Shown: one piece after another, positions 38,971 to 54,894 of the stretch
Numbering within the stretch: the first letter of the stretch is position 1
Layout of the letters: each line of letters starts with the position of its first letter
Virus record (IMG/VR): IMGVR_UViG_3300033067_002020
Span: 11,311 to 75,310 of that record
Origin: a virus
Lineage: Duplodnaviria; Caudoviricetes
Reading direction: 5' to 3' (one strand)
Length of the DNA: 64,000 nucleotides
Program-made: the position numbers and the translations under genes
Notes under the pieces: generated by a model
The model's database searches: none
Seen by the model: only the letters and a program-made list of their open reading frames with translations
What the model was told of the DNA's origin: nothing

Positions 38971-40584
38971 TCATCTCTTCTTCACAAGTAACTTATGCTC
39001 AGGAAAATATAGGTAATCAATTTGTGTCTTCATAAAGCAATTAATCGCATGAATTGGTTCTTCGACGATTGGCTCTCTGTCATTGAATGACGTATTCAAC
39101 AAAATAGGAACGCCTGTTCGTTGATACCATTTTGTCAAAAATGCGTGATACCATTCGTTGTCTTCTTTTCTGACAGTTTGTAGTCTGCCAGTTCCATCAA
39201 AGTGAACGACGGCAGGAACTTTTGATTTCACTTCATCTTTAAACGGTAAGACGAAGTTCATATACGGACTTTCTACGTCAGAATATACCTGAAACCATTC
39301 ACGAACATGTTCATACAAAATTGACGGTGCAAATGGTCTAAACGATTGACGGTGTTTGACTTTCTGGTTGATCATGTCCTTCATTTGCGGATTTCTAGGA
39401 TCAGCAATGATTGATCTGTTACCCAGAGCCCTTCTCCCGGACTCCGCCCTCTCGTTGAACACAGAAATAATCGAACCATTTGACAGTAGTTCTATCACAA
39501 AATTGTCATCCGAATTTTCTACCACCGCTTGAGGGCAACTTTCCAGAGCATCTAACACTTGTTTTTTAGAATATGACTTCCCAAGATATGATGATGCGTT
39601 TTTGTTCCAATCGACTCTTTGGTTACCCAAAACGTGATGCCAAGTGTGTTGGGCAGAACCTATTGTTAGGCCCGCATCATACGGGACGGGTGGAATATAA
39701 ACATCGTACATGTTTGATAACATTCCCATGGCAACTGAATTTAAAGCAACACCACCAGAAATACAAATGTTGCCAATTCTAAGTTCCTGTACAGCGTCTC
39801 CAACAATGCCCAAGATCAATTCTTGTGTCGCCATTTGCAACGCACCAGCCATGTCAAACTTAGCTTGCTCATCGTTTTGTGCGATGTCACGCCATTTTCC
39901 AAGGAATGGATGCCGAGGTTCTCTTGGATCTTTAACAGACATACCTGTAATATGACCAGGAGCTCTTGCGACAGTTTTCGCTAAGTTATCTGTCATAAAA
40001 GACCTAAAATCTTTTAGATACTTTTCTGGGTTTTTTGCCAGCGCCGCAAGTGCCATTGTTGTTCCACACTGATTTCCGTATGGATATCCAGATTCATATC
40101 CAAAAACGCAGCGTGTCACTCTTGACCAAACACCACCAATATTGATCTGTGATAATGGAATGTATTTGACGGCTTTTAGTTTTGTATCATCACCTTTCCA
40201 AACTGTGACGCCAGTAGTGAATCCTGTCTCGTCTTCAATGCCACCACCATCTATTGTGATGATAATCGCAGATTTGAAATTGCTGGAATAAAATGCATTT
40301 GACGCATGCGATTGATGATGTCCAACGACGTAAAGTGGTGCAATACCAGAGATTTTATCCCATGATTGTTTGTACTCTTTGATTCCGTTATCAAGATGAC
40401 ATGTTGATAAACCAATGATATCACTTACATCACCATGATGGTCAAAGAACAATTTAATGCTATCATAAGGAGGTTCTTTTACACGAAGGTGTCTTTCTGC
40501 CTCTGTGTGCAGTTCAATTTTACCATCGTTTAAAACACAAAATGATGCATCGTGCCCACTCCAAAGACCTAAAATCTTTTTCAT
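38971..40584 (-). CDS. carbamoyltransferase, NodU/CmcH family
   Basis: GHDAS, HHQSHA, IDGGG, SGGVALN, DAG, RALGNRS, FRPFAPS, HFDGTGRLQTV, LNTSFN. Confidence 0.93.
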   Translation of the reverse strand: MKKILGLWSGHDASFCVLNDGKIELHTEAERHLRVKEPPYDSIKLFFDHHGDVSDIIGLSTCHLDNGIKEYKQSWDKISGIAPLYVVGHHQSHASNAFYSSNFKSAIIITIDGGGIEDETGFTTGVTVWKGDDTKLKAVKYIPLSQINIGGVWSRVTRCVFGYESGYPYGNQCGTTMALAALAKNPEKYLKDFRSFMTDNLAKTVARAPGHITGMSVKDPREPRHPFLGKWRDIAQNDEQAKFDMAGALQMATQELILGIVGDAVQELRIGNICISGGVALNSVAMGMLSNMYDVYIPPVPYDAGLTIGSAQHTWHHVLGNQRVDWNKNASSYLGKSYSKKQVLDALESCPQAVVENSDDNFVIELLSNGSIISVFNERAESGRRALGNRSIIADPRNPQMKDMINQKVKHRQSFRPFAPSILYEHVREWFQVYSDVESPYMNFVLPFKDEVKSKVPAVVHFDGTGRLQTVRKEDNEWYHAFLTKWYQRTGVPILLNTSFNDREPIVEEPIHAINCFMKTQIDYLYFPEHKLLVKKR

Positions 40585-41561: not shown

Positions 41562-41978
41562 TTATTTTCCTAAGAAACACAAACCAGTAAGAATGCAAGC
41601 CAATCCAATCACTTTTGCAGAAGTAATTGTTTCATTGAAAATGAAAATAGAAAGAATGAACGTAACCATCGGATACGCAGACGTCAATCCTACAACCTTT
41701 GACACACTTTCAGTTCTTAGTGAAAACGTAAATGCTAACGTGGCCATCGCACCACACAAGGCTCCAATTAGAGCATAACAATTACCTTTGAAATTTGAAT
41801 CAAACGAATGATTTGAAATTTTCAACATGTACAAGTAAATTGGAATTGTTATTCCGCTGCCGAGAGCCGCAATCAATGATACTTGTACTGGATAGATTCG
41901 TAATTGGGCTGCTTTATTAAAGATCCCCCAAAGACCCCAACACAAAATCGCAATTGCGATTAAAATGTTACTATTCAC
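41562..41978 (-). CDS. EamA/DMT-family half-size membrane transporter
   Basis: About five TM helices; WGLWGIFNK, SLR...VS.V...TS.YP...F...IF.E pattern. Confidence 0.8.
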   Translation of the reverse strand: MNSNILIAIAILCWGLWGIFNKAAQLRIYPVQVSLIAALGSGITIPIYLYMLKISNHSFDSNFKGNCYALIGALCGAMATLAFTFSLRTESVSKVVGLTSAYPMVTFILSIFIFNETITSAKVIGLACILTGLCFLGK

Positions 41979-42576: not shown

Positions 42577-42900
42577 TCAAGAAGTGCAAAGAAATTGTTT
42601 CGCCTCTTCAACAAACAATTCCATATCTTCCAGTGACATAATCAAAGGAATTTCAACCGTATCAACTCTAAGCGTGTAATAAGATGTCTTTGTAGCCTCG
42701 TCTTGTTTTAAGACGATTTCTAATGCTCTTGAAGACCTAAGACAATAAACAACTTTTGCCGTCATTACCATATCTCTGGTAAAACGTAAAGTTAACACGC
42801 CATTGTCATCGAGTGATACGACACTTACATCATCTATTACTTGTTCTTGACTTTTAATAAAGTCGCCAACATTCACTGTTCTAACAAAAATTTGTTTCAT
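42577..42900 (-). CDS. hypothetical protein
   Basis: ATGA-coupled to the methyltransferase gene. Confidence 0.55.
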   Translation of the reverse strand: MKQIFVRTVNVGDFIKSQEQVIDDVSVVSLDDNGVLTLRFTRDMVMTAKVVYCLRSSRALEIVLKQDEATKTSYYTLRVDTVEIPLIMSLEDMELFVEEAKQFLCTS

Positions 42901-43502
42901 TGTGACTCCTTGAGTTTAGCTAACGATTCTCTAACGTCAAGACCATCTAATTCATTTCCAGTGCAAGTCCAACCTTCTGTGTGTCGTCTCGCGAACAATT
43001 CAAGTTTCTTTGCATCAGGAAACATTAAATTGAATGAATTATGCAAGTTTTGTGGTTTCTTACTGTGCATCTCGTTTAAAGCAAGCTCAAAATCAGGTGG
43101 CAAATCTTCATCAACAATGAGTGATCTTTGCGATTTATTTTGAAGATTTGCATATGGTTTACCGCATGTTCCAATCAACGCAATTTCATGAGAACCTCTA
43201 AACATTCGACCCATGCCGAATTCAATTTTTCCTGATTTTGTGGTTTTACCCCAAACGTATGTTGTTGTTTGTCGAAATCCCCACGATGTCATTGTCCTAA
43301 GTCCATCAGATAACATCGATGAAGGAACCCATAATGCTAAAACTCCCCAATCACCAACGATAGATTGCACGTCAATATTGACAATGTCATCCACGGATAA
43401 AACACCTTTATATTGAGATTCTGCTCCTCTTTTGACAGAACTCATTGTCAATTTATCATCAAATTTCCACGGCGGATCAGCGATTATTACGTTAAATTTC
43501 AT
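42897..43502 (-). CDS. MT-A70 family N6-adenine methyltransferase
   Basis: IIADPPW, LALWV, WGF...YVWGK, GMG..FR..HE, HSKKP, LELFAR. Confidence 0.9.
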   Translation of the reverse strand: MKFNVIIADPPWKFDDKLTMSSVKRGAESQYKGVLSVDDIVNIDVQSIVGDWGVLALWVPSSMLSDGLRTMTSWGFRQTTTYVWGKTTKSGKIEFGMGRMFRGSHEIALIGTCGKPYANLQNKSQRSLIVDEDLPPDFELALNEMHSKKPQNLHNSFNLMFPDAKKLELFARRHTEGWTCTGNELDGLDVRESLAKLKESQ

Positions 43503-44171
43503 TCAACATCTCCTAATTTCACCGCTTAAACGTACTAAAGAATACTCAATTTGACAAAAACTAATGTCAATTTGTTTGTTTAAAACATGATACGTAAAAA
43601 TTGTCTCTGGTCTGAATTGTGCAACGTTTTTACATAAATCGTCAAATTGATCATAAAGTTCAAAGTAAGATTTCATCACAGAAACATCACCAAAAGCAAA
43701 ATAATCATGTAATGTTCCGTTTGGCGTTTTAACGTTTCCTGGTAAAAACAACACTTTTTCTCTACTTGACAAGATAACATCTTCATGAAATAACATGTCA
43801 GGTCTGACTGACACAATTACATCATATTTAATTTCACTTTGTTGTGATAACTCAAAACTTTTTTTAGCAGAGTACCACTTACTTTTTACGTTATGTGGTG
43901 GGGTTCTTGCGTATAAAAAACAATCATGATTTTCCAAGTCAAATTGAATTTGTGGTTCAATCATTAATGTTTTGATTTTACATAACGCATTTAATGATGC
44001 ATCGTCTATTGGCGACAAACCGCCAACGTCTTCTTTTCTTGTGGTACCTTTGACGTCCCAAGTATGCATAAAAACATCACAGTCATACTTGTCAAGTAAG
44101 TGTTGACGAATAGACTGTGATGTTTTTTCAAACGTTCTTACGTGTCCAGAAAAGCAAACGGCAACTTTCAT
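43503..44171 (-). CDS. putative glycosyltransferase-like protein
   Basis: KVAVCFSGHVRTF, DVFMHTW, RPDM, DYFAFG pattern common in phage sugar loci. Confidence 0.55.
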   Translation of the reverse strand: MKVAVCFSGHVRTFEKTSQSIRQHLLDKYDCDVFMHTWDVKGTTRKEDVGGLSPIDDASLNALCKIKTLMIEPQIQFDLENHDCFLYARTPPHNVKSKWYSAKKSFELSQQSEIKYDVIVSVRPDMLFHEDVILSSREKVLFLPGNVKTPNGTLHDYFAFGDVSVMKSYFELYDQFDDLCKNVAQFRPETIFTYHVLNKQIDISFCQIEYSLVRLSGEIRRC

Positions 44172-44455
44172 AGCAATCTTTTAAATTCTGTTACAATTTC
44201 CAAATCAATTTGACACAAAACACACACATAATCTTTAATTTCAAATCTAGATTCTATTACGTGGTCGCAATAACAACATACTGAATTACAAGCTTTTGTT
44301 TGTAACCATAAATCTCTTAATTCAGTATGTTCATTAAGATCTAGCCAAGGACTCAATGCCCAATAAACAGGAAATTTTTTAACTTCACCTGTTTGTAAAA
44401 CAAATTTAAGATATGACCCTTCTATGTATGAACTTACAACTTTCATTTTCTTCAC
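44168..44455 (-). CDS. hypothetical protein (CxxC pairs)
   Basis: CCYCD...CVLC; ATGA coupling. Confidence 0.55.
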   Translation of the reverse strand: MKKMKVVSSYIEGSYLKFVLQTGEVKKFPVYWALSPWLDLNEHTELRDLWLQTKACNSVCCYCDHVIESRFEIKDYVCVLCQIDLEIVTEFKRLL

Positions 44456-44482: not shown

Positions 44483-45676
44483 TCACTGAACCAATCCCCA
44501 TGTGGAAATGGCTTCATCATACTCTTTACCATGTTGGCGATCAATAGCTTGTCTCATGGCTCGAGCACCATTGACTGTGCCTCCCGGATGGCCATGGATC
44601 GCTCCCCCACAATTTAGAAGCAGTTCATTACCTAACTTTCCTCTAATATATTCTACAAGGCCTGGGTGCATTCCACAACTAAGCGCTGGCATTGTACCAT
44701 GAGATTGTAAGATCTCGACAGTTTTCTTCAATTCACTTTCATCGTCTGATGAATACCCGCCTAACATTCCATTGTGAATGAAATCGGCACCCATCATTCC
44801 AGCTAATTTACAAACAACGCTCCAATCAATGTGAAAAGCATGTTTCTTTGAAGTGAAAATCTTGTCACCACTCTTTTGAAAGTGTAAAAACAAAGGCAAA
44901 TCAAGCTTACGGATGCTATTGTAAACACCCAAACCAGACCAGAAATTTACATGAACACCATTAACACCAGCTTCATGAACTTGCTTTACTCTATCAAGAA
45001 CGTTATGTGGATCTGCGTTAATACAAACACAATACACAACATTTTGTGTTGAAAGATATTGTGCTAGTTTTGGCAGTCTTTTTTCAAGAGTACAACATGA
45101 TGGATTTGCCATAATCTCATCTTCTTTTATGAAATTGACGCCACCGTCGACCAAAGCTTTGACAAGATCTAACAAAATGTCTTCATTCATACAAACTTTT
45201 GGTTTGACAATTCCACCAAGAAGAGGCTTGTCATAAACACCAGTGTACTTTCTAATTCCTTGAATCCCAAATTTTGGTCCAAGAAAAGTGTTCTTAACAC
45301 TATCTGGAAATTGCACATCTAAAACATGACATTTCACAATACTATCAATGTCAAGCTGACCACCCATGATGTGGCACAAAAATTGTGACATACCATCAGA
45401 CAAAAAATCAATGTTTGACAAAGGAAATGCAATTTTTACAGTTCCAGATTTACGTTGAAGTTTTTTGCTACCACGTTGTTCTAACACAATGCAAGAATGC
45501 TTGGCGAATAGTTCATCAGACTCCCAAGCATTTCTAACGTTAGGATTTCCAACGCTTTGACCTATTGCTAAATTCCATGCAGCGTTTTCAAGACTTTTTG
45601 TTGACGACAATTTGTACGTCACAACAAAATAATCAGTTGTGTCAAAATCAGGTTGAAATACTTCAAATTGTGTCAT
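44483..45676 (-). CDS. rlp: RuBisCO-like protein (form IV)
   Basis: GPKFGIQGIR, GGIVKPK (K175/K177), FIKEDE (K201/D203/E204), GADFIH (H327), LSCG, CGGAIHGHP. By-eye alignment gives E60G, N123G, H294Q and K334Y, so not a carboxylase. Confidence 0.92.
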   Translation of the reverse strand: MTQFEVFQPDFDTTDYFVVTYKLSSTKSLENAAWNLAIGQSVGNPNVRNAWESDELFAKHSCIVLEQRGSKKLQRKSGTVKIAFPLSNIDFLSDGMSQFLCHIMGGQLDIDSIVKCHVLDVQFPDSVKNTFLGPKFGIQGIRKYTGVYDKPLLGGIVKPKVCMNEDILLDLVKALVDGGVNFIKEDEIMANPSCCTLEKRLPKLAQYLSTQNVVYCVCINADPHNVLDRVKQVHEAGVNGVHVNFWSGLGVYNSIRKLDLPLFLHFQKSGDKIFTSKKHAFHIDWSVVCKLAGMMGADFIHNGMLGGYSSDDESELKKTVEILQSHGTMPALSCGMHPGLVEYIRGKLGNELLLNCGGAIHGHPGGTVNGARAMRQAIDRQHGKEYDEAISTWGLVQ

Positions 45677-45986
45677 ACTTGTCTCCTGGAACGCTTGGTG
45701 TTTTCACAACAACTAACTCACAATCTTCTAAAAAGATTGGGTCGCCAATCTCACTTGGTTCAACAACAAAAATATCGCCAGAATTTAATTCTTGACCTTG
45801 AAATAACATTTTTCCCTTTACAAGAAAATTTATTTCAGTGGCAATTCGATGTATATGAGGTGCCCAAAATTCACCTTTTTGATGAATCTTGTAACTCACT
45901 TCACATGCTTCTGTGACATGTGCAGAAGGTGAAAAGTTTCCAACGAACCATCCACCTTTCATCTGTTCAAATTTGTAAATCTTCAT
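45663..45986 (-). CDS. cupin-fold protein
   Basis: KGGWFVGNF, HIHRIATEINF, GDIFVVEP, VVVKTPS; overlaps the RLP start by 14 nt. Confidence 0.8.
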   Translation of the reverse strand: MKIYKFEQMKGGWFVGNFSPSAHVTEACEVSYKIHQKGEFWAPHIHRIATEINFLVKGKMLFQGQELNSGDIFVVEPSEIGDPIFLEDCELVVVKTPSVPGDKYDTI

Positions 45987-46708
45987 TTTATTGTTGATCT
46001 CGAAAGATATTTTTGCAAATCTTCTGGCGTTCCAATTGGGTGATGTTGAAAAATTGGGTAAATTTCAACAAGACCACCACGAGAAATTGTTTCATTGTAG
46101 ACAGGACAAACATAAAACTCATTGTTTGTACGAATGTTTTTTCTGATCATGTTTGATGCGTCAGAGACAAAATCAGAGCCTTTTCGCCAATAGTAAAGAC
46201 CAGTTGTTGCGCAATTACTGATGACTTCTTTTTCAGCAACACGAGACACTCTGTATTTTAAAGGATCGTTTACATCAATTTCAGCGTAACTGTTCTTGAC
46301 ATCATTTGAATGATACGTCACAATAATGCCATCAGCTGTCGATGTAGAAACACAATTCATAAATTGTTGTGGAGTCCAATCCTCAATTTGATCACAATTT
46401 GCAATCAACAAACTATCATCTTGAATGTAATCTTTTGCTAACAAACAAGTTTCAGCCGCACCACGTGTCAAATGACTTGTTGTAATGACTTTGCATCCCG
46501 GCTTCAGTGACGACAACAACAAAATTAGGCGATGATAATCTGGTGCATCTTCTCTAACAACAAACACGTACTTTCCAATATTACCAAGATTATCAAGTAC
46601 TCTGACAATCATTGGTAGACCGTTGACGTCAATTAGTGGCTTTGAATCTTTATATCCATTTTGAGAAAACCTTGTACCACCACCAGCCATCGGAATCAAT
46701 ATATTCAT
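45983..46708 (-). CDS. sugar-phosphate nucleotidyltransferase (NTP_transferase family)
   Basis: LIPMAGGGTRF, KPLIDVNG, TRGAAET, IANCDQ, EKEVIS. Confidence 0.85.
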   Translation of the reverse strand: MNILIPMAGGGTRFSQNGYKDSKPLIDVNGLPMIVRVLDNLGNIGKYVFVVREDAPDYHRLILLLSSLKPGCKVITTSHLTRGAAETCLLAKDYIQDDSLLIANCDQIEDWTPQQFMNCVSTSTADGIIVTYHSNDVKNSYAEIDVNDPLKYRVSRVAEKEVISNCATTGLYYWRKGSDFVSDASNMIRKNIRTNNEFYVCPVYNETISRGGLVEIYPIFQHHPIGTPEDLQKYLSRSTIK

Positions 46709-47529
46709 GTGATGATTTTATTCTTTTGCATGGTCAATGTATTCCAACGATCAGCTTGATATAGCCAAAATTGTGCAAAAGGGTCATCTGCTGGTTTAAC
46801 ACTAGAACCTTTCATGTGAGTTAAAAATGGTTCATTTTCATAATGAAATTCTTGACCAGTTCCTAACCGCGTTGGCTTTGTAAAATTAAAACAAAACCCA
46901 TCAAGACCGTATGGTCGTAATTTCATAGGAAACTCATAGCCAACATCAAGATAAATTCTTGATCCCTTGGGCCGCCCGTATGATAACGCTTGTTCTTTTG
47001 TTACAATTTCGTGCGCGCCCTTATCAGGATGAGGCATAAATGAAATATTGTGTTTTTTCATCAAATTATGTCTAAACATTGCAACAATCAATGCTGGGAA
47101 GTTAACATACTTTGGTAAATTACTGTCTTTAAAATAATCTGTGCCACAAATGACAGTCTTATCAGTTAGCTTTGAAACCATGATTTGGTCCCAATTTTTA
47201 CGCAACATCATGACATCGCAATCCGCAATCAGACAATAATCAGCATCAACATCATCATATAACGATTGAAGAACAAGCGCATGGCCAACTGACCCAGGTT
47301 CTGTTTCAGTATCCACTGATTTGATTTTTAGTTCTGCATGTTGATTAACAAATTCAACATGTGAATATTCAAATTGTGGAAAATTGTTTAATCCAAGTGA
47401 AAATGTTAAATCATATTCACCAGAACAAGTTTCCAACGCAGATTTCATATACTTTGCAACAAACTTGTCAGAATTTTGTCCACATGGAATAATGACTTCA
47501 ATTTTTTCTTTATTCATTCGCAAATCCAA
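46705..47529 (-). CDS. putative GT-A fold glycosyltransferase
   Basis: GHA, IADCDV (DxD), THMKGS; context. Confidence 0.5.
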   Translation of the reverse strand: MDLRMNKEKIEVIIPCGQNSDKFVAKYMKSALETCSGEYDLTFSLGLNNFPQFEYSHVEFVNQHAELKIKSVDTETEPGSVGHALVLQSLYDDVDADYCLIADCDVMMLRKNWDQIMVSKLTDKTVICGTDYFKDSNLPKYVNFPALIVAMFRHNLMKKHNISFMPHPDKGAHEIVTKEQALSYGRPKGSRIYLDVGYEFPMKLRPYGLDGFCFNFTKPTRLGTGQEFHYENEPFLTHMKGSSVKPADDPFAQFWLYQADRWNTLTMQKNKIIT

Positions 47530-48053
47530 TTAGTTTTCAACATGTACATACAAATTTCATCATGATATTCGTTATCACGAAATAATGATTGAACGTGTCT
47601 ACCTTCTTCAAGAAATCCTAGTTTCTTATAGACTTTTTTTGCAATATCGTTATAATCTGCAGTTGTTAGACTTACTCGATGTAAACTTAGTCCTGGGTAT
47701 GTTTTATCAAAACAATAATCAAGCATCAACTTCCACATCGTTATGGCATGTCCCTTACCACGATGTTGAGGATGTATGTCAGCACCTAAAATGCAATTAT
47801 TGTTATTCTTGTCAATGTTGTAAAACTTACAGAATCCAACATTTTCATCATTGACACAAAAAATGAGTCTTTTTTCAGTTTGTGAATTGTTTATTCTATT
47901 CCACCAATTCATATGACTTTTAAAATCAATTGGTGTTGGATCTGTTATATTGCGTAATGTTGTTTGATCATTATGCAATTCAACTAACCACTGATGATCA
48001 TCATCTGACACATATCTTAAACAAGCGTTATCGTATTTTCTTACACATGTCAT
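47514..48053 (-). CDS. GNAT N-acetyltransferase (PseH-like)
   Basis: HMNWW, GADIHPQHRGKG, YKKLGF.EEG; directly downstream of the aminotransferase. Confidence 0.8.
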   Translation of the reverse strand: MTCVRKYDNACLRYVSDDDHQWLVELHNDQTTLRNITDPTPIDFKSHMNWWNRINNSQTEKRLIFCVNDENVGFCKFYNIDKNNNNCILGADIHPQHRGKGHAITMWKLMLDYCFDKTYPGLSLHRVSLTTADYNDIAKKVYKKLGFLEEGRHVQSLFRDNEYHDEICMYMLKTNWICE

Positions 48054-49180
48054 CTACATAACTCAATAACTCTACGAGCAATGTGTTCAATATCTTTTGA
48101 TTTAAGCCACCAACCAACAGGTAAACACAATTGTTGTTTAGAAAATTGTCTCACTCCTGGTAAGTCTGCTTTGAATTTATTAAAACAGGTATATGTGTCA
48201 TTTGGAACGTGAACAACACCTGCTTTAATTCCTTCTGAATTAAGTTTTTGCAATAATTGATCACGTGTTATAGGTGAATTATCAGAAAGCGTAATTCCGT
48301 ACACCCAATGACTTGACAATGCTTTTGGGTGTCTGATCAGTGGATTTACATTACGTAACATTGCATCATAGATTGTTGCATTTTGTCTATGAGCGTCAAT
48401 GATCCCATCAATTCGCCACAAGTTTGCAAGCCCAATTGCAGCTGAAACATTATTCATGTTATGTTTCCAACCTGCTTCAAGAATGTCAACGTCCCACTGT
48501 TGACCTTTCCAGTTTCCAACTTCATCTTTTGATTTGTCTCTATCAAGACCAAACCATTTTAGCGCTTTTGCACGCTCAAAGGTTTCGTTATCAGAACAAA
48601 CAAGTGCGCCCCCATCGCCCGTCGTAAAATGCTTGATGGCTTGAAAGCTATAACAAGTGAAGTCTACAAATTCTGACACAGGTTTGCCCTCAAATAGGGC
48701 TCCAAAGGCATGTGCTGCATCGAGGATTAGTTTTATAGAATGCTTCTTGCAAATATTCTGGACGCTGATTAGGTCAGGTGGTGTACCGCCCCAAGCAACA
48801 ACAACAACTGCTTTTGTTTTTGGTGTTATTTTTGCCTCAATCATCTCTGGTTCTGGCATTCCACTGTGAGGATTAATGTCAGTCCAGACAATGTTCGCAC
48901 CTAAGTTAACAATTGGCGTGTTCGTTGCAACACAAGTCATCGGCGTAGAAACAACATCATCACCAAATCCGACGCCAGAAAGTTGTAATGCCAACGTCAG
49001 TGCAGATGTACAACTATTTGTTAATAACAATTGTTTTGAACCAAGTTTTACTTGCAACGCCTGGGTCAATTCAGTGACTTGAACACCTTCATTTATAAAT
49101 CCTGAATTAAAAACATTTTCAATTTCTTTAAGGGCATGCAAGTTACTGACACCAACACGAAATAATGAATACTCTTTCAT
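48050..49180 (-). CDS. DegT/DnrJ/EryC1/StrS sugar aminotransferase (PseC-like)
   Basis: NSCTSAL, DAAHA, SFQAIKHFTTGDGG (PLP lysine). Confidence 0.92.
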   Translation of the reverse strand: MKEYSLFRVGVSNLHALKEIENVFNSGFINEGVQVTELTQALQVKLGSKQLLLTNSCTSALTLALQLSGVGFGDDVVSTPMTCVATNTPIVNLGANIVWTDINPHSGMPEPEMIEAKITPKTKAVVVVAWGGTPPDLISVQNICKKHSIKLILDAAHAFGALFEGKPVSEFVDFTCYSFQAIKHFTTGDGGALVCSDNETFERAKALKWFGLDRDKSKDEVGNWKGQQWDVDILEAGWKHNMNNVSAAIGLANLWRIDGIIDAHRQNATIYDAMLRNVNPLIRHPKALSSHWVYGITLSDNSPITRDQLLQKLNSEGIKAGVVHVPNDTYTCFNKFKADLPGVRQFSKQQLCLPVGWWLKSKDIEHIARRVIELCR

Positions 49181-50226
49181 GTTGTTGAAATTTCCTCAAT
49201 TTTTTGACCTGAAAATTGATCAAGTTTCATGTCAAACACGTTCAATTTGATTAGGTGTTTTTTAAGTTCTTCTTTTGTTAGAACTTTCATCGAACTGTCA
49301 TAAGATTGAACTTCACGAGAACAAGTTGTTGAAAACACTGGTTCGATTACGTAATTTTTAGCTTTTGAACTCTTGTAATCACAAATTTTTCTTGTTCTTG
49401 TTGCTTCGGATGTGTTGATTAAATCTTCATGTAATTTTTCACCAGGGCGTGAGCCAACAATTCTAATTTTCTTTCCTGATATTTCAGAAAACAATTCAGC
49501 TAAATCACCAATTTTCATTGCTGGTATGACTGGAATCCACGTTTCCCCAGATGCACCATTTACGATGGTTTTGCATATTAGATCAACGCTATCATCAAGC
49601 GTCATTACAAATCTTGTCATTTCAGGATTCGTAACTGTCAAGCAATCATTTTTTTCTGATTGATACTTGAATAGTGGAATTATACTTCCTCGCGACTCAA
49701 GCACATTTCCATATCGAGTACACACAAATGCAACATTATCTTTACGCTCAGTCGATGCTTGACTAGTTATCAACCGTTCAGATATTGCTTTGCACATTCC
49801 ATATGTGTTTATTGGAGATGATGCCTTGTCTGTGCTAACGTATAAAACTGTTTCAAGTCTCTTTGAATGAACGTCATTAATTGCATTTATGACATTTTGC
49901 GTGCCGTGAACATTTGTTTGAATACTTTCCCAAGGCGAAAGTTCACATGTATCAACTTGTTTAAGGGCTGCAGCAAGAATGATAATGTTTGGTTTGACTT
50001 GTCGTATTACGTCTTTGACTCTATTGTAGTCTCTAACATCTCCAACGTAAAATTTGGGTTGTTCAATAGAATATCCTTTGATTGACAGATCGTTTTTAAG
50101 AGTCCACTGTTTTAATTCATCACGTGAATATACACTAATTGAATTGTTATCTGACAATCTATCAATTAGCTTTTTACCAAGTGAACCTGTGCCACCAAAT
50201 ATCAAAATTGACTTGCCTTTGATCAT
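49177..50226 (-). CDS. UDP-GlcNAc 4,6-dehydratase (PseB/FlaA1/CapD-like)
   Basis: GGTGSLG, SRDELKQ, AAALKQV, STDKA, YGMCK, RYGNV..SRGS, RPGEKLHE; no TM domain. Confidence 0.9.
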   Translation of the reverse strand: MIKGKSILIFGGTGSLGKKLIDRLSDNNSISVYSRDELKQWTLKNDLSIKGYSIEQPKFYVGDVRDYNRVKDVIRQVKPNIIILAAALKQVDTCELSPWESIQTNVHGTQNVINAINDVHSKRLETVLYVSTDKASSPINTYGMCKAISERLITSQASTERKDNVAFVCTRYGNVLESRGSIIPLFKYQSEKNDCLTVTNPEMTRFVMTLDDSVDLICKTIVNGASGETWIPVIPAMKIGDLAELFSEISGKKIRIVGSRPGEKLHEDLINTSEATRTRKICDYKSSKAKNYVIEPVFSTTCSREVQSYDSSMKVLTKEELKKHLIKLNVFDMKLDQFSGQKIEEISTT

Positions 50227-51068: not shown

Positions 51069-52171
51069 GCTAACCTGTCAAGAAAATCTGACCAATTTTT
51101 CCAATATTGTTCATTGAAAATACGACGTTTCATCTCTAACATGCCATGACGTAAACTTTCAGCAAACTCATGATCATTTTCAATTTTAAGAACTGCAGTG
51201 ACAGCATCTTGAGGAGTGTTCACTAACACACAATTGAATCCATCAATCAAGTATTTTTGTGAACATGATTGTTGTACGTATGATTCAGTTGTAATCATAG
51301 GCGTTCCAGTATTCAATGCATGGAAAAAACACCCGCCGCCCCAATCTGTTTGTTTAAAATGAACTATTGCTTTCAACGTTGATATGAATGCTAGACAGTC
51401 TTTTGGAGATAAAGTTGGAAAGTTTCCTGTCGGCCCATTTTTATGATACCTGATATCAGCACCCATCGAACGAATGTTTCCACCGTAATTTGTGACCGAC
51501 ATTGAATGTTCATTTAACAAATGATTCATTTCAACGAAAAGTCTGTAATCCCTTGGTTGTCTGATTTCAAAGTTATGATTAAACGAAGCAAAACCGTGTC
51601 TACGTTGTTGTGGCGTTACGCCTAACAAATTCAATTCAATTTCATGACACATAATTGTGCATGAATTACTTGATGTTTTAGCGTTTTCATAGCTTGCAGG
51701 AATAATCTTTGCAATGTTTGGTGCCATGACACCACCTGGAGAGATATCCCATGCATTAAGTGTTGATGAAACCCATTTAGCTGAAGGAAAGTGCTCTCTG
51801 GTTATCTGAACATACTTTGAAAGGTATCTTTCACCACCTCGAAGGGTGTGATAAATGTCGATATCATATTTTTGTTGTGTCAAATCAACTATATCACATA
51901 TCAAATCAGTGTTAGACTCGACTGTTTGTTGAGTCAAAAAATAATCTTCACCAAACAAATCATCTTGTGTTCTATCAAATCCATGAATGTCAAAGTTTTT
52001 TTTGCCATCTGAATTTCGACACAACAACATTGGCCACGTAGCAATTTTCGACCATTCAAGACCTAAAGTGCCGTGTTTTGGTAAAAACACGTTATGACCC
52101 AACAATCTATAGTGATAGATGATTGAAAGTTGTCCAGACCTATCATCTGTTGGGAAAATAAACACGTTCAT
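51065..52171 (-). CDS. putative GT-B glycosyltransferase
   Basis: C-terminal ALNTGTPMIT...LIDGFNCVLV. Confidence 0.65.
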   Translation of the reverse strand: MNVFIFPTDDRSGQLSIIYHYRLLGHNVFLPKHGTLGLEWSKIATWPMLLCRNSDGKKNFDIHGFDRTQDDLFGEDYFLTQQTVESNTDLICDIVDLTQQKYDIDIYHTLRGGERYLSKYVQITREHFPSAKWVSSTLNAWDISPGGVMAPNIAKIIPASYENAKTSSNSCTIMCHEIELNLLGVTPQQRRHGFASFNHNFEIRQPRDYRLFVEMNHLLNEHSMSVTNYGGNIRSMGADIRYHKNGPTGNFPTLSPKDCLAFISTLKAIVHFKQTDWGGGCFFHALNTGTPMITTESYVQQSCSQKYLIDGFNCVLVNTPQDAVTAVLKIENDHEFAESLRHGMLEMKRRIFNEQYWKNWSDFLDRLA

Positions 52172-52626
52172 CGTGAAGACTCAAGATAATCGCTACAATA
52201 GCCAGAACACCTGTTTTCAAATAACTTATACGAATCTTTTTCAAGTTTGACAATGACTGATTTTTGTGTGACAGGTTTTCCTGGATAAGTCCAGATGTAT
52301 CCTTTTGATGTTAGCGTATGATCGTCATTTTCATGCCAAAAACAATGAATGTTATTTTCAAGCAAAAATTGCAATGCTTGATGATTTTTTGCATGAACCC
52401 AAATTTTGTCATTTTTCAAAAAATCAACATCAATTTTATATGTCGGTGTGTCATGTCCGAGATACAAACCATTGTAAGGCTCATATTGCTGTGAATCGTC
52501 AATCCAGACATCAACTTCAATATCAAATCCAGCTTGCAAAGCTTCTAACAAATAGTCAGGATGATTTTCCCACTTTGTCTTTCCACACATATTTCCACGA
52601 TGAGCAATCAAATGAAATTCAGACAT
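52168..52626 (-). CDS. GDPD/PI-PLC-like phosphodiesterase-fold protein
   Basis: IAHRGN, DIEVDV, LGHD, WVHAKN, CSD. Confidence 0.75.
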   Translation of the reverse strand: MSEFHLIAHRGNMCGKTKWENHPDYLLEALQAGFDIEVDVWIDDSQQYEPYNGLYLGHDTPTYKIDVDFLKNDKIWVHAKNHQALQFLLENNIHCFWHENDDHTLTSKGYIWTYPGKPVTQKSVIVKLEKDSYKLFENRCSGYCSDYLESSR

Positions 52627-53503
52627 TTAAACTCCTCACATACTCTCTAACAGGATCATCAATTTTACGTTGAATACGTTTCACACCAAACAAAAAATCA
52701 CGATCATATAACTGTTGTTGTTTTTCAAACAACCTACGTTCAAGACAGTATTCTGTTGGTGTTGTAATGTTTCGTACTTGGTCAATCAAATTGTTGTCAA
52801 TCGACACTCTTGGCCATGACATCACTTCACTAAACACATATGGAAACGTTATTTGTGTAGAAAGTTGTTTTGCAAGAGTCGGGTAATAGACTTCTTCTCT
52901 TGCGTATAGAGTGTTGTTGTGATCGTTATCATTTTTTGTTTGATATGATTTGATCTTATCTCTTGCGAAAAACAAATCAATGACTCGAGTCATTTCTTCA
53001 AACAACGTAACATCATAAAAAGTGCCCTCTGGTTGAGAACAACAGATTGAATCTGACCCTACGTAATTTAACATGTCACGTAGTTGATCATCATGTTCAG
53101 CTCTACGTCTGGGGGTCCATTGCATGTCTTTATGAGTCACAAACGTATTAACACCACAATGATGTGAATTAATGTATGATTCAACACCAGACCTAACGAA
53201 CAAATCATTACTAGCATGCAAACAAAACTTGTCGAATCCTTGACCTAGTTGTTGTTTGGCGTACCTAAAGTTAGAATTGTGAGCCTGTATTAGATCGGCC
53301 CAGCCAACGGCTAGAAAATTCTCGTTAATTAGAACACTAGAATCTATTGCATATTCAATGATTAATCTCGGGTCACCTGAGAAGCATCTGTTTATATGAA
53401 CAATTGTAATAGAATTTGGAACGAACTTTCTTATGTTCTGAAGCTGATCAATAACAACAAGAGGTTGTTCATGAACTAACAATGAAATAACAATGGGTTT
53501 CAT
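52619..53503 (-). CDS. hypothetical protein, possible glycosyltransferase
   Basis: LLVHE...VHIN...HASNDLFV...EEVYYPT...KRI; context only. Confidence 0.45.
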   Translation of the reverse strand: MKPIVISLLVHEQPLVVIDQLQNIRKFVPNSITIVHINRCFSGDPRLIIEYAIDSSVLINENFLAVGWADLIQAHNSNFRYAKQQLGQGFDKFCLHASNDLFVRSGVESYINSHHCGVNTFVTHKDMQWTPRRRAEHDDQLRDMLNYVGSDSICCSQPEGTFYDVTLFEEMTRVIDLFFARDKIKSYQTKNDNDHNNTLYAREEVYYPTLAKQLSTQITFPYVFSEVMSWPRVSIDNNLIDQVRNITTPTEYCLERRLFEKQQQLYDRDFLFGVKRIQRKIDDPVREYVRSLNV

Positions 53504-54894
53504 AACAAATTTACGTTCTTCGTAAGATCTTCAGGTGTTCCAAGTCCTAACATTTTATCACATTGAAATATGACGATTTTCTTTCCATCTGCGATTGCTT
53601 CATTGTAAACTGGACAAACATAAAACTCATTGTTTGTGCGAATGTCTTTTTGGATCATCTGTTTAGCATATTTGACATAATCACTACCTTTACGCCAAAA
53701 ATAAATGCCTACGGTTGCGTTATCAGAAATTTGTTGTTTTTCTGCAACTTCAACAACAACGTCAGAAAATTCATTCTGTGTTTTTGCATATGACCATTTA
53801 TCGTCGTTGGCTTTAAACGTAACAATTCCACCGTCGATTTGATTTTTTATTGCTTGAGTCATAAACCTGTTATGATCCCATTCAATGTATTGATCTGAAT
53901 TAATGATGAACAAAGGATCATCATTATTGATGTAATTTTCTGCGTAAAGTGTCGTAGAAACAGTGCCATTTGTCACGGAATCAATTGAAACAGTGACATC
54001 ACCATGATTCAACAGTTCTGCAAAACACCGTTGATATTTTACTAAATGTTCTTGAAGCGCACAATAAACGTATTTCCCAGGAATTCCAACGCTGTCAATT
54101 GACACTTGTACCATTGATTTTCCACGAACGTCAATAAACGGTTTTGGAATTGTGTACCCAGAATTTACAAATCGTTGGCCACGTCCTGCCATTGGTACGA
54201 GAACATTTACGTTTTCTAAACCATGTAAAATGGTCGCATCAAATTGATTAAATCGACAGTTTCTTTCTGCATTTCTAATTTCTCTGATAACATTTCCAAT
54301 GTTTACTTCATCAACAGATTTAACTTTTACAAGATGTGCACCAGAATCTAATGCAGCTTTTTGACCGACTACTGTGTCTTCAAATATGATTGTTTCTGTG
54401 GGACAAACACCACAATCTGACATTATTTGAAGATACGTTTGAGCGTTTGGTTTTTGATATTTGATCTTATCACCACCAACGACAATGTCAACATATTGCC
54501 TAATTTGCATTTTTGTCAAAATTTCATTGACATATACGTCACTTGAATTTGATGCGACACATATCTTTACATCATGATAAAACTTCAATTTTGAAAATAA
54601 AAATGATTTCTCATTATCTTGTTCAATTTCAAAATTGATCATATCAAGTGTATGACGTCTTTTTGAAGTTAAAATTCTACCATGTAGTTCTTTAGGAAAC
54701 CCTTTTTCTTTTGTTAGAATTTCTAATTTCTTAGACGATGAAATTCCATCATACGACTCATACCATTCTTCTGATACTTGAAATGTAGGATTTATTTCTT
54801 CAAGTGCTCTATTAAGAGCGACAAAATGAATATATTTTGAATCAGATATGACTCCATCAAGATCGAAAATTACACACTTAATCCAAGATCTCAT
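53500..54894 (-). CDS. fusion: HAD phosphatase (beta-PGM/CbbY-like) + sugar-phosphate nucleotidyltransferase
   Basis: IFDLDGV, ASNS, KP, IFEDT..G; then VPMAGRGQRF, KPFIDV, INSDQ. Confidence 0.88.
   Translation of the reverse strand: MRSWIKCVIFDLDGVISDSKYIHFVALNRALEEINPTFQVSEEWYESYDGISSSKKLEILTKEKGFPKELHGRILTSKRRHTLDMINFEIEQDNEKSFLFSKLKFYHDVKICVASNSSDVYVNEILTKMQIRQYVDIVVGGDKIKYQKPNAQTYLQIMSDCGVCPTETIIFEDTVVGQKAALDSGAHLVKVKSVDEVNIGNVIREIRNAERNCRFNQFDATILHGLENVNVLVPMAGRGQRFVNSGYTIPKPFIDVRGKSMVQVSIDSVGIPGKYVYCALQEHLVKYQRCFAELLNHGDVTVSIDSVTNGTVSTTLYAENYINNDDPLFIINSDQYIEWDHNRFMTQAIKNQIDGGIVTFKANDDKWSYAKTQNEFSDVVVEVAEKQQISDNATVGIYFWRKGSDYVKYAKQMIQKDIRTNNEFYVCPVYNEAIADGKKIVIFQCDKMLGLGTPEDLTKNVNLL

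What the first reader, a model, noticed from the sequence alone, without database searches (positions are those of the whole stretch)
44483..46708. Phage RuBisCO-like protein coupled to a cupin and a nucleotidyltransferase: candidate new nucleotide-sugar pathway
Seen: three overlapping genes in the order NTase, cupin, RLP, in the middle of a GT island. By-eye alignment to form I numbering shows the enolisation machinery kept (K175, K177, carbamylation/Mg motif K201-x-D203-E204, H327, S379, G381, G403-G404). Residues needed for carboxylation are changed (E60G, N123G, H294Q, R295K, K334Y). Established: form IV RLPs catalyse enediolate chemistry on keto-sugar phosphates (tautomerase or isomerase in methionine salvage, carboxyl transfer or decarboxylation in apionate catabolism), and RuBisCO misprotonation yields xylulose-1,5-bisphosphate. 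No methionine-salvage genes are in the window. Inference: the RLP works biosynthetically as an epimerase, isomerase or branching enzyme making an unusual pentulose or branched sugar phosphate. The cupin, HAD phosphatase and NTases would convert it to an NDP-sugar donor for virion glycosylation. I know of no characterised RuBisCO-family enzyme with this role, nor a characterised phage one.
Basis: partly seen in the sequence, partly recalled or inferred. Interest (0 to 1): 0.92.

Follow-up and report, generated by a model that had tools for sequence, protein, structure and literature searches.

The report
Phage RuBisCO-like sugar-activation gene cassette
A T4-like phage carries an intact RuBisCO relative that cannot fix CO2 and is locked, here and in phages, SAR11 and tiny archaea, to a sugar-activating enzyme, a small cupin and a miniature phosphodiesterase; its nearest cousins sit in sugar-breakdown operons, so it probably reshapes a keto-sugar phosphate into an unusual activated glycan unit.

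Summary
Three overlapping minus-strand genes encode a nucleotidyltransferase (45983-46708), a 107-aa metal-type cupin (45663-45986) and a 397-aa RuBisCO-like protein (RLP, 44483-45676) inside a glycosyltransferase island of a T4-like phage fragment. The RLP keeps K175, K177, K201-x-D203-E204, S379, G381 and G403/G404. It has lost E60, N123, H294, R295 and K334.

The link to the nucleotidyltransferase is strong. Of 45 dereplicated viral loci, 39 have one within three genes, and fusions exist in both orders. Cellular loci in SAR11, Verrucomicrobiae and Nanoarchaeota show the same pairing.

The HAD domain is not conserved.

In my tree the clade lies outside the groups I labelled form III-like, MtnW/YkrW-like and OiaX-like. 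Its sister is an actinobacterial subfamily in sugar catabolic operons with kinase, cupins, transketolase or aldolase-type genes and transporters. That points to a ketose phosphate as substrate.

The phage clade was already reported as 'form IV-like' with unknown function (Jaffe et al., bioRxiv 10.1101/386292). This scan has also met the cassette before, on other DNA from at least 36 genomes. The chemistry and the glycan target remain untested.

The parts
44483..45676 (-). RuBisCO-like protein (RLP), 397 aa, 'form IV-like' phage-type clade
   Evidence: PF00016 4.2e-30. Best PDB hits at about 30% identity: 2oej, 4nas, 2cwx. Below every NCBIfam equivalog cut-off. Active-site map. Trees.
45663..45986 (-). 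Small metal-type monocupin, 107 aa, with invariant H-x-H-x4-E
   Evidence: Alignment A2. AF2 pLDDT 87. Foldseek top hits are the Thermococcus small phosphomannose isomerases 7zvm/7zvy and KdgF 5fq0. Within three genes of the RLP in 33 of 45 dereplicated loci. Fused to the NTase in 6 viral loci.
45983..46708 (-). Sugar-phosphate nucleotidyltransferase (type A), 241 aa
   Evidence: NTP_transf_3 and NTP_transferase. Best PDB hit 4evw, an NDP-sugar pyrophosphorylase, 7e-12. Within three genes of the RLP in 39 of 45 loci. Fused to the RLP in both orders: P0016, P0074, P0122.
52168..52626 (-). Mini glycerophosphodiesterase (GDPD)-like phosphodiesterase, 152 aa
   Evidence: Invariant H9, R10, E20, N21, E37, D39, H58. 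Profile against PDB GDPD 7e0v gives 2.4e-4. AF2 pLDDT 94. Foldseek's strongest hits (ranks 1-7, 10, 12, 13) are GDPDs, TM about 0.5. Within three genes of the RLP in 39 of 45 loci. Full-length Pfam GDPD stands in its place in the cellular loci L098 and L099.
53500..54894 (-). HAD (beta-phosphoglucomutase/CbbY-like) fused to a second nucleotidyltransferase (type B), 464 aa
   Evidence: HAD_2 3e-22 plus NTP_transferase. PDB hits 4evw, beta-PGM and CbbY. The type B NTase alone sits next to the RLP in cupin-less loci. The HAD part is rare.
52619..53503 (-). Unknown 294-aa protein, translationally coupled between the mini-GDPD and the HAD-NTase
   Evidence: Overlaps both neighbours. No Pfam, NCBIfam or PHROG hit. 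Membership is inferred from position only.
43503..44171 (-). DUF7796-like protein, 222 aa, a candidate transferase for the product
   Evidence: PF25072 N-terminus 4e-6. phrog_13607 1e-21. Atlas neighbours are viral DUF7796 and 'capsular polysaccharide biosynthesis' clusters. Found in 22 of 80 loci. Fused to the mini-GDPD in L012. Pfam DUF7796 lies next to the cassette in L098.
44168..44455 (-). Unknown 95-aa ORF between the RLP and the DUF7796-like gene
   Evidence: ORF only. No family hit. Not conserved in other loci.
47514..50226 (-). Accessory genes: PseB-like 4,6-dehydratase, DegT aminotransferase and GNAT (amino-sugar branch of the island)
   Evidence: Polysacc_synt_2 4e-80, DegT 8e-82, GNAT 5e-15. 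These travel with the RLP in only about 5 of 80 loci, so they are not part of the core.

Best explanation
The RLP is a catalytic, Mg2+- and carbamate-dependent enolising enzyme, an isomerase or 3-epimerase that works through a 2,3-enediolate. It acts on a ketose phosphate or bisphosphate and cannot carboxylate. It belongs to a mobile biosynthetic cassette of RLP, nucleotidyltransferase and GDPD-like phosphodiesterase, usually with a small metal cupin (probably an aldose-ketose or keto-enol isomerase), and often with O-methyltransferases and a DUF7796-type protein that I take to be a transferase.

The RLP, with the cupin, would turn a common sugar phosphate into an unusual one. The nucleotidyltransferase would then make the NDP- or CDP-activated donor. 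The unit would be installed on a surface glycan, possibly as a phosphodiester-linked keto-sugar or polyol phosphate that the GDPD-like enzyme supplies, trims or uncovers.

Shown here: homology, active-site pattern, synteny, fusions, clade position and the catabolic sister group. Inferred: substrate class, order of steps, nucleotide used, and target.
For: 1. The RLP is intact and under selection. The KPK, KEDE and GQSxGNP motifs, Q267-x-S-G (the FQKSG block), GGY and SCG are invariant across 44 sequences from phages and MAGs. The P1 phosphate loops G381 and G403/G404 are kept.

2. Linkage. In 45 viral loci dereplicated at 90% identity, an NTase lies within three genes in 39, a mini-GDPD in 39 and a cupin in 33, in about 28 different arrangements.

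3. Fusions: NTase-RLP (P0016, P0074) and RLP-NTase (P0122); NTase-cupin in 6 loci and GDPD-DUF7796 in 1.

4. Cellular loci.
- A complete Verrucomicrobiae chromosome has a bare RLP-NTase-cupin trio among housekeeping genes.
- A SAR11 MAG has miniGDPD-x-RLP-NTase-GT61.
- A Nanoarchaeota MAG and another contig have RLP-NTase with a full-length Pfam GDPD, methyltransferases and SDR enzymes. The Nanoarchaeota locus also has DUF7796; the other contig also has GT2 and a Wzx-type flippase.

5. Methyltransferases of sugar O-MT types (CmcI/Methyltransf_24, FkbM, TylF) often follow the RLP directly.

6. Tree. A group with 100/99 support joins the NTase-linked clade with an actinobacterial sister subfamily. 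Four sister contexts were read. All hold a regulator (SorC or GntR) and one or two cupins. Three also hold an FGGY or PfkB kinase. Split transketolase (two), class II FBP aldolase (one), a GatZ/KbaZ-like gene (one) and sugar transporters (three) occur variably. None has an NTase. This puts the substrate class at ketose phosphates.

7. The cupin's nearest folds are small phosphomannose isomerases and KdgF. NTase plus cupin is the architecture of bifunctional PMI/GMP enzymes (own knowledge).
Against: - No enzyme of this clade has been assayed, so the substrate, product and nucleotide are unknown.
- Two of the three distal-phosphate residues are altered (R295K, H298D; H327 is kept in most), so a RuBP-like bisphosphate is not assured.
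- The order of NTase and RLP cannot be told from synteny or fusions; the RLP might act on the NDP-linked compound.
- The cupins beside the catabolic sister RLPs are not specifically related to the phage cupin (hhalign probability about 1%). The RLP-cupin pairing may therefore be convergent.
- The cupin is missing from about a quarter of loci and from the SAR11 and DPANN loci.
- The role of a phosphodiesterase in a biosynthetic cassette is unexplained.
- The contexts of the sister subfamily come from only four places in MAGs and metagenome contigs.
Confidence: 0.6

Rival explanations
1. The RLP acts on the nucleotide-linked compound itself, for example an NDP- or CDP-ketose made first by the nucleotidyltransferase. 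The conserved P1 glycine loops would hold the diphosphate, and the remodelled N-terminal motif (GQSVGNPNVR, invariant R48) would make a new anion or nucleotide site. It would be the first RuBisCO-fold enzyme that edits a nucleotide sugar.
For: Fusions of NTase and RLP occur in both orders. The N-domain residues that close the RuBisCO active site are all replaced by a new invariant motif. Two of the three distal-phosphate residues are altered (R295K, H298D).
Against: The sister subfamily works without any NTase, in kinase-containing catabolic operons, so the ancestral substrate is a free sugar phosphate. Fusions are equally expected for consecutive steps in either order.
Confidence: 0.2
2. The RLP serves salvage of SAM by-products, either a methionine-salvage-like enolase (MtnW) or an MTRu-1P 1,3-isomerase. 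The cupin would then act as an acireductone dioxygenase or methylsulfurylase, and the HAD as an MtnX-like phosphatase, supporting the many SAM-dependent methyltransferases of the island.
For: The best solved relative by sequence is the Geobacillus DK-MTP-1P enolase 2oej (3e-36). Known pathways pair an RLP with a cupin (DeepYkr RLP with the cupin methylsulfurylase RPA2169/RPA2170; PMC5893883) or with a HAD and a cupin (MtnW, MtnX, MtnD; abstract of PMC3698126). Methyltransferases are frequent neighbours.
Against: - Scores are far below the MtnW equivalog cut-offs (166 against 409 bits; 138 against 513.6).
- The clade is separated from the MtnW/YkrW-like group with 100/99 support.
- The position that is Lys in the MtnW-like references (equivalent to N123) is Gly here. 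That Lys as catalytic base is own knowledge.
- No MtnA, MtnB or ARD in the 75-kb record.
- The universal partner is an NTase, which has no role in these pathways.
- Methyltransferases release SAH, not MTA (own knowledge).
Confidence: 0.05
3. The RLP has lost catalysis and serves as a scaffold or regulator of the nucleotidyltransferase, or is a decaying passenger gene.
For: Many canonical catalytic residues are replaced. No activity is known for the clade.
Against: The Mg and carbamate triad, K175/K177 and the phosphate loops are invariant over sequences only 38-60% identical. The gene has full family length. More than 2,700 homologues were found, and 188 IMG/VR stretches encode relatives.
Confidence: 0.05
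4. The cassette is catabolic or scavenging in the phage too. It would break down a host glycerophosphodiester or sugar phosphate (GDPD, then RLP and cupin) to feed nucleotide-sugar pools, and would not make a new sugar.
For: The sister subfamily is catabolic. GDPDs are normally hydrolytic supply enzymes, as with GlpQ feeding the Lic1 phosphocholine pathway (own knowledge).
Against: In cellular genomes the cassette sits inside Wzx, GT and methyltransferase polysaccharide loci, not transport or kinase operons. The tight NTase fusions argue for a dedicated product.
Confidence: 0.1

Closest known systems
'Form IV-like' RuBisCO-related proteins of phages and Beckwithbacteria (Jaffe, Castelle, Dupont, Banfield; bioRxiv 10.1101/386292, also PMC6389311)
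   Same: Same kind of sequences: divergent RLPs on myovirus-type contigs from IMG/VR, grouping with Beckwithbacteria sequences and lying outside the other RLP clades, with divergent key residues. A Beckwithbacteria MAG homologue at 53% identity was recovered here.
   Different: That paper left the function open. In the text I searched it does not mention a nucleotidyltransferase or glycosyl genes; its Figure S1 of gene context is not held. Added here: the cassette, the fusions, the cellular glycan loci and the catabolic sister subfamily.
DeepYkr RLP (MTRu-1P 1,3-isomerase) with the adjacent cupin MTXu-5P methylsulfurylase in the MTA-isoprenoid shunt of R. rubrum and R. palustris (PMC5893883)
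   Same: An RLP gene next to a cupin gene. The RLP moves protons on a ketose 1-phosphate through an enediolate.
   Different: Not the same clade as the MtnW/YkrW-like group that I could label. No MtnP or MtnA partners. The partner here is an NTase, inside glycan loci. Homology of the phage cupin to the methylsulfurylase could not be tested because no reference sequence was available.
MtnW (DK-MTP-1P enolase), MtnX (HAD phosphatase) and MtnD (cupin dioxygenase) of Bacillus methionine salvage (abstract of PMC3698126)
   Same: The same three folds occur together (RLP, HAD, cupin). The best PDB sequence hit is the Geobacillus enolase 2oej.
   Different: About 30% identity, far below the equivalog cut-offs. 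The Lys base is missing. K177 and H327 are kept as in true RuBisCO. The HAD is not conserved. The cupin is 107 aa, not of ARD size.
Bifunctional type II phosphomannose isomerase / GDP-mannose pyrophosphorylase (ManC, AlgA type; own knowledge)
   Same: An N-terminal NTP_transferase followed by a C-terminal metal cupin, the architecture of the 352-aa NTase-cupin fusions in 6 viral loci. The cupin's nearest folds are small PMIs.
   Different: No Pfam MannoseP_isomer hit. An RLP and a GDPD-like enzyme are added. The sugar is unknown.
CDP-polyol and CDP-ketose routes and the phosphocholine route (TarI/TarJ CDP-ribitol, AbpA/AbpB CDP-xylulose to CDP-arabinitol, GlpQ with LicC/LicD; own knowledge)
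   Same: An NTP_transf_3-type NTase acting on a primary phosphate ester, SDR reductases nearby, and phosphodiester chemistry with a GDPD.
   Different: None of these uses a RuBisCO-fold enzyme. The match is by logic only and was not tested.
Apiose and apionate catabolic RLPs (OiaX, OiaC) and the apulose-4-phosphate transketolase route (Carter et al. 2018; own knowledge)
   Same: RLPs in sugar catabolic operons with kinases and split transketolases, as in the sister subfamily P0138/P0293.
   Different: NF042437 (OiaX) scores 138 against a cut-off of 700. The OiaX-like group is a separate clade.

Membership tests
RuBisCO large-subunit superfamily (PF00016/PF02788) | Homology to the catalytic TIM-barrel domain | tested here: met
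   PF00016 4.2e-30, 105.5 bits against a cut-off of 30.1. 99 PDB sequences matched.
RuBisCO large-subunit superfamily (PF00016/PF02788) | N-terminal alpha/beta domain | tested here: inconclusive
   PF02788 scores 20.3 bits against a cut-off of 20.7. The alignment to 2oej starts at residue 18.
Bona fide RuBisCO (forms I-III) | Complete set of carboxylation residues (E60, N123, H294, K334 as well as K175, K201, D203, E204) | tested here: not met
   E60G, N123G, H294Q and K334Y are conserved substitutions across the clade. TIGR03326 scores 171 against a cut-off of 497.
Bona fide RuBisCO (forms I-III) | Carbamylatable Lys with Mg ligands (K201-x-D203-E204) and K175 | tested here: met
   KEDE and KPK are invariant in 44 sequences.
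MtnW/YkrW DK-MTP-1P enolase | Scores above the equivalog cut-off and groups with the clade | tested here: not met
   NF007095 scores 166 against 409; TIGR03332 scores 138 against 513.6. Separated from the P0207, P0215, P0246, P0164 group by branches with 100/99 support.
MtnW/YkrW DK-MTP-1P enolase | Lys general base at the position of N123, and methionine-salvage gene context | tested here: not met
   Gly at that position here, where P0207 and P0215 have Lys. No IF-2B, Aldolase_II or ARD genes in the record.
DeepYkr MTRu-1P 1,3-isomerase | Groups with the R. rubrum or R. palustris RLP1 | not testable with these tools
   No labelled reference sequence could be fetched. The context (MtnP, MtnA) is absent.
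OiaX/OiaC apionate RLPs | Scores above the equivalog cut-off and groups with the clade | tested here: not met
   NF042437 scores 138 against 700. The OiaX-like P0201 and P0225 form a separate clade.
'Form IV-like' phage/Beckwithbacteria clade (Jaffe et al.) | Divergent RLP on myovirus-type phage contigs, grouping with Beckwithbacteria sequences and lying outside the other RLP clades | tested here: met
   T4-like markers are present: baseplate wedge, RNA ligases and DNA ligase. 188 IMG/VR stretches encode relatives. A Beckwithbacteria MAG homologue has 53% identity. The clade has 99-100% support apart from all others.
Glycerophosphodiester phosphodiesterase (GDPD), for the 152-aa partner | HRG...EN...ExD...HD catalytic and metal motif at the N-terminus | tested here: met
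   H9, R10, E20, N21, E37, D39 and H58 are invariant. The profile aligns to PDB 7e0v residues 13-63 at 2.4e-4.
Glycerophosphodiester phosphodiesterase (GDPD), for the 152-aa partner | Full TIM-barrel of about 230-250 aa and a Pfam PF03009 match | tested here: not met
   The protein is 152 aa. PF03009 matched 1 of 36 members, at E 0.033. Foldseek TM is about 0.5 to GDPDs. Full-length GDPDs take its place in L098 and L099.

The most novel reading that the evidence does not exclude
This RuBisCO-fold clade has been recruited from ketose-phosphate catabolism into biosynthesis. It would work as a 3-epimerase or isomerase, the 'misfire' chemistry of RuBisCO made useful. Its product is nucleotide-activated and installed, perhaps as a phosphodiester-linked keto-sugar or polyol phosphate, on the surface glycans of T4-like phages, SAR11, Verrucomicrobia and DPANN archaea. 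That would be a sugar-building role and a glycan residue not yet described.
Probability: 0.35. Interest if true: 0.85.

Novelty: new variant of a known kind. Interest (0 to 1): 0.72.

Why it matters
All characterised RuBisCO-like proteins that I know of work in salvage or catabolism. A biosynthetic member wired to nucleotide activation would add a new role to one of the best-studied enzyme folds.

The cassette is abundant. More than 2,700 homologues were found, most of the closest ones from metagenomes and several from Tara Oceans, and 188 IMG/VR stretches encode relatives. It also sits in the glycan island of a SAR11 MAG. Its product may therefore be a common, unrecognised part of marine and freshwater cell or virion surfaces, and may matter for phage-host recognition.

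The catabolic sister subfamily offers a practical way to find the substrate class.

Tried and rejected
- Complex prediction of RLP (A4) with NTase (A5): no verdict. It counts neither for nor against binding.
- tblastn of the RLP and megablast of 20 kb against 50,697 GenBank phage records: no match. PHROGs has no family for the RLP.
- Pfam on 36 mini-GDPD members singly: not informative. The profile search against PDB and the fold search were needed.
- hhalign of the phage cupin profile against the cupins beside the catabolic RLPs: probability about 1%. I dropped the idea that the cupin pairing is inherited.
- hhalign of the DUF7796-like profile (A3) against the 242-aa family that follows the RLP in cupin-less loci (A6): probability 31%, over one motif only. 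Inconclusive.
- The listing of cluster members named only one of ten outgroup clusters. Clades were labelled with NCBIfam scores instead.
- Carbon-fixation AMG reading: rejected on residues. AMP-pathway reading (form III with R15P isomerase): rejected because no IF-2B gene is present.
- No tRNA genes in the window.
Full report
WHAT IS THERE

The window is 64 kb of a 75-kb IMG/VR virus record that CheckV estimates at about 20% complete. It is a T4-like tailed phage. It has a baseplate wedge protein, two RNA ligases including the tail-fibre attachment type, and an ATP-dependent DNA ligase.

From about 33.8 kb to the end, all genes run on the minus strand and form a glycan island. The island holds:
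- GT4-, GT1- and GT2-type transferases and a Methyltransf_24 O-methyltransferase;
- a carbamoyltransferase and an EamA half-transporter;
- a PseB-like dehydratase, a DegT aminotransferase and a GNAT;
- a HAD-nucleotidyltransferase fusion.

THE RLP

The 397-aa protein matches the RuBisCO large-chain catalytic domain (4.2e-30). Its best solved relatives share about 30% identity: the Geobacillus DK-MTP-1P enolase 2oej, the Alicyclobacillus RLP 4nas and the form III enzyme 2cwx. It lies far below every NCBIfam equivalog cut-off for form III, form II, MtnW and OiaX.

I aligned it with form III-like references that carry the canonical motifs.
- Kept: K175 and K177 (IVKPK), the carbamate and Mg triad (KEDE), H327 in most members, S379, G381, G403/G404.
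- Replaced: E60G, T65N, W66P, N123G, H294Q, R295K, H298D, K334Y, G380C.

The replacements are conserved, not decay. GQSxGNP, GGQxDI, Q267-x-S-G (the FQKSG block), GGY and SCG are invariant in 44 sequences that share only 38-60% identity. From established RuBisCO mechanism, this pattern keeps proton abstraction by the carbamate and binding of the phosphate next to the carbonyl. It removes CO2 addition and hydration.

A LARGE, DISCRETE CLADE

The word-indexed search found more than 2,700 homologues at E<=1e-10. Most are about 395 aa and about 60% identical, and they come from metagenome collections including Tara Oceans. The exhaustive search of 50%-identity representatives shows roughly 25 full-length clusters above about 200 bits, then scores that fall to about 165 bits and below for the rest of the superfamily.

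A first tree gave the clade 99-100% support. I labelled outgroup clades with NCBIfam scores:
- P0157 and P0177 are form III-like;
- P0207, P0246 and P0164 are MtnW/YkrW-like;
- P0201 is OiaX-like.

The phage clade nests in none of them.

THE CLADE IS NOT NEW AS A SEQUENCE GROUP

Jaffe et al. reported about 90 phage 'form IV-like' RLPs from IMG/VR, some on Myoviridae contigs. They grouped with Beckwithbacteria and lay outside the other RLPs, with function unclear. I recovered a Beckwithbacteria MAG homologue at 53% identity. In the text I searched, that paper does not mention a nucleotidyltransferase or glycosyl genes, and two further literature searches found no description of the cassette.

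This scan itself has met the cassette before, on other DNA from at least 36 genomes, and reached similar readings. I treated those notes as leads and tested the points myself.

THE NEIGHBOURHOOD

IMG/VR holds 188 stretches that encode a relative, and 80 loci were fetched. I called ORFs and searched them with the window's proteins. The NTase-cupin-RLP order recurs, very often followed by a homologue of the window's 152-aa ORF at 52168-52626.

After dereplication at 90% RLP identity, and requiring 3 kb on both sides, 45 loci remain. An NTase lies within three genes in 39, the 152-aa protein in 39 and the cupin in 33, in about 28 different arrangements. Persistence through shuffling of gene order argues for function, not inheritance of one block.

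Fusions say the same thing:
- NTase-RLP (P0016, P0074) and RLP-NTase (P0122);
- NTase-cupin of about 352 aa in six loci, one of them a giant-virus MAG;
- one fusion of the 152-aa protein to a DUF7796-like protein.

There are two cassette forms:
- NTase(A)-cupin-RLP-(methyltransferase)-152aa;
- 152aa-NTase(B)-RLP-(242-aa protein), without a cupin.

The window has the first form at 44.5-46.7 kb. It also has the 152-aa gene, an unknown 294-aa gene and a HAD-NTase(B) fusion at 52.2-54.9 kb. The HAD part is rare elsewhere, so it is not core.

Genes directly after the RLP are often sugar-type O-methyltransferases (CmcI/Methyltransf_24, FkbM, TylF). A UDP-GlcNAc 2-epimerase also occurs.

THE PARTNERS

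The 152-aa protein has invariant H-R, E-N, E-x-D and H-D motifs. Its profile matches the N-terminal catalytic half of the Pyrococcus GDPD 7e0v (2.4e-4). The AF2 model is confident (pLDDT 94), and its strongest Foldseek hits (ranks 1-7, 10, 12, 13) are glycerophosphodiesterases at TM about 0.5. It is therefore a miniature GDPD-like phosphodiesterase. In two cellular loci a full-length, Pfam-recognised GDPD stands in its place, which supports that reading.

The cupin has the invariant H-x-H-x4-E metal motif. Its closest folds are the small Thermococcus phosphomannose isomerases and KdgF.

The NTase's best solved relative is the uncharacterised Vibrio NDP-sugar pyrophosphorylase 4evw.

The DUF7796-like protein (43503-44171) resembles viral 'capsular polysaccharide biosynthesis' clusters. 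I take it as a candidate transferase.

CELLULAR LOCI

- A complete Verrucomicrobiae chromosome carries a bare RLP-NTase-cupin trio. Its neighbours are a lactonase-like propeller, an outer-membrane barrel, a fatty-acid desaturase, a flavoprotein and an RNA methyltransferase. The trio can thus stand alone in a cell.
- A SAR11 MAG contig that also carries gyrB has miniGDPD-x-RLP-NTase-GT61-DUF4422.
- A Nanoarchaeota MAG has RLP-NTase with GDPD, DUF7796, methyltransferases and SDR enzymes.
- Another long contig has RLP-NTase with GDPD, methyltransferases, GT2 and a Wzx-type flippase.
- Deep branches of the clade (P0133, P0135) keep RLP, a 111-aa ORF and an NTase.

THE NEW CLUE: A CATABOLIC SISTER SUBFAMILY

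A careful tree joins the NTase-linked clade (28 rows, 100/99) with an actinobacterial subfamily (P0138, P0293-P0298; 7 rows, 100/99). The joint group has 100/99 support and excludes all other forms.

P0138 is 39% identical to the window's RLP. It shares the KEDE, GQS, Q294 and GGY hallmarks but keeps R295 and G380.

Its genes sit in sugar catabolic operons. Four contexts were read.
- All four hold a SorC or GntR regulator and one or two cupins (cPGI type PF06560, or Cupin_2).
- Three hold an FGGY or PfkB/Khk kinase.
- Two hold a split transketolase; one of these also has a class II FBP aldolase, and a third holds a GatZ/KbaZ-like protein.
- Three hold sugar transporters, and one a glycoside hydrolase.
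- None holds an NTase.

A kinase followed by an RLP and then a transketolase or aldolase-type enzyme implies that the RLP handles a ketose phosphate. A plausible job is to give it the configuration those enzymes accept. That is a 3-epimerisation or isomerisation through the enediolate, which RuBisCO itself performs as a side reaction (XuBP formation; own knowledge).

The cupins in these operons are not specifically related to the phage cupin. I claim only an analogous pairing, not an inherited one.

MECHANISM PROPOSED

- Shown: homology, the retained enolisation core, loss of the carboxylation residues, linkage and fusion to an NTase, linkage to a GDPD-like enzyme, a cupin and methyltransferases, placement in glycan loci, and the catabolic sister.
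- Inferred: the RLP, helped by the cupin, converts a common ketose or aldose phosphate into an unusual isomer.
- Inferred: the NTase activates that isomer.
- Inferred: methyltransferases and SDR enzymes tailor it, and a transferase (perhaps the DUF7796-like protein) installs it.
- Inferred: the GDPD-like enzyme points to phosphodiester chemistry, such as a polyol- or ketose-phosphate decoration, or supply from a glycerophosphodiester.
- Open: the order of RLP and NTase, the nucleotide, and whether the target is the virion or the host surface.

RIVALS

- Action on the NDP-linked substrate remains quite possible.
- SAM by-product salvage is unlikely on scores, tree, residues and context. The fold trio RLP, HAD and cupin does mirror MtnW, MtnX and MtnD, and an RLP-cupin gene pair is known from the MTA-isoprenoid shunt.
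- A non-catalytic role is unlikely given the invariant catalytic core.

VERDICT

The sequence clade is known, and this scan has already noted its wiring into a nucleotide-activation cassette several times. The functional reading is still untested. The catabolic sister group gives a concrete way to find the substrate.

Noticed in passing
window 34978-37407 (-): The 809-aa GT4-type glycosyltransferase has internal PHROG hits to segments of ribonucleotide reductase, an endonuclease and a helicase at residues about 261-571. This fits an intein with a homing endonuclease inserted in the GT, as other notes of this scan say.
   Followed up: partly
protein P0218 (583 aa): A TIR domain is fused to the N-terminus of a full RuBisCO-like protein (TIR_2 3e-13 plus RuBisCO_large 1e-45). 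It lies outside the phage clade and may be related to defence.
   Followed up: no
proteins P0166 and P0179 (726 and 742 aa): An IF-2B family domain, the family of ribose-1,5-bisphosphate isomerase, is fused to a form III-type RuBisCO. Jaffe et al. already describe a fusion of RuBisCO to that isomerase for the AMP pathway.
   Followed up: no
window 47514-50226 (-): A PseB-like dehydratase, a DegT aminotransferase and a GNAT lie in pathway order. No NeuB/PseI-type synthase or CMP-transferase turned up in the Pfam scans of the ORFs from 37 to 64 kb.
   Followed up: no
window 45983-46708 and 53500-54894 (-): There are two paralogous nucleotidyltransferases 7 kb apart, and the second is fused to a beta-phosphoglucomutase/CbbY-like HAD domain. 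In other loci either type sits beside the RLP.
   Followed up: partly
L012:8206-9276 (+): A single 356-aa protein fuses the mini-GDPD to a DUF7796-like domain. This suggests that the two work together.
   Followed up: partly
L083 (Pelagibacteraceae single-cell genome AG-343-D15, 6.3-kb contig): An NTase-RLP pair 56% identical to the window's RLP lies on a short contig of a SAR11 single-amplified genome. It could be host DNA or an infecting phage, so it is only a possible hint to the host.
   Followed up: no
window 38971-40584, 41562-41978, 42897-43502 (-): A NodU/CmcH-type carbamoyltransferase, a 138-aa single EamA-domain transporter and an MT-A70 adenine methyltransferase lie just downstream of the cassette.
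   Followed up: no
L089 and L094: Radical SAM (SPASM) genes lie a few genes upstream of deep-branch RLP cassettes, at about 2.7 kb in a Sphingobacteriales MAG and about 0.8 kb in a phage-like contig.
   Followed up: no
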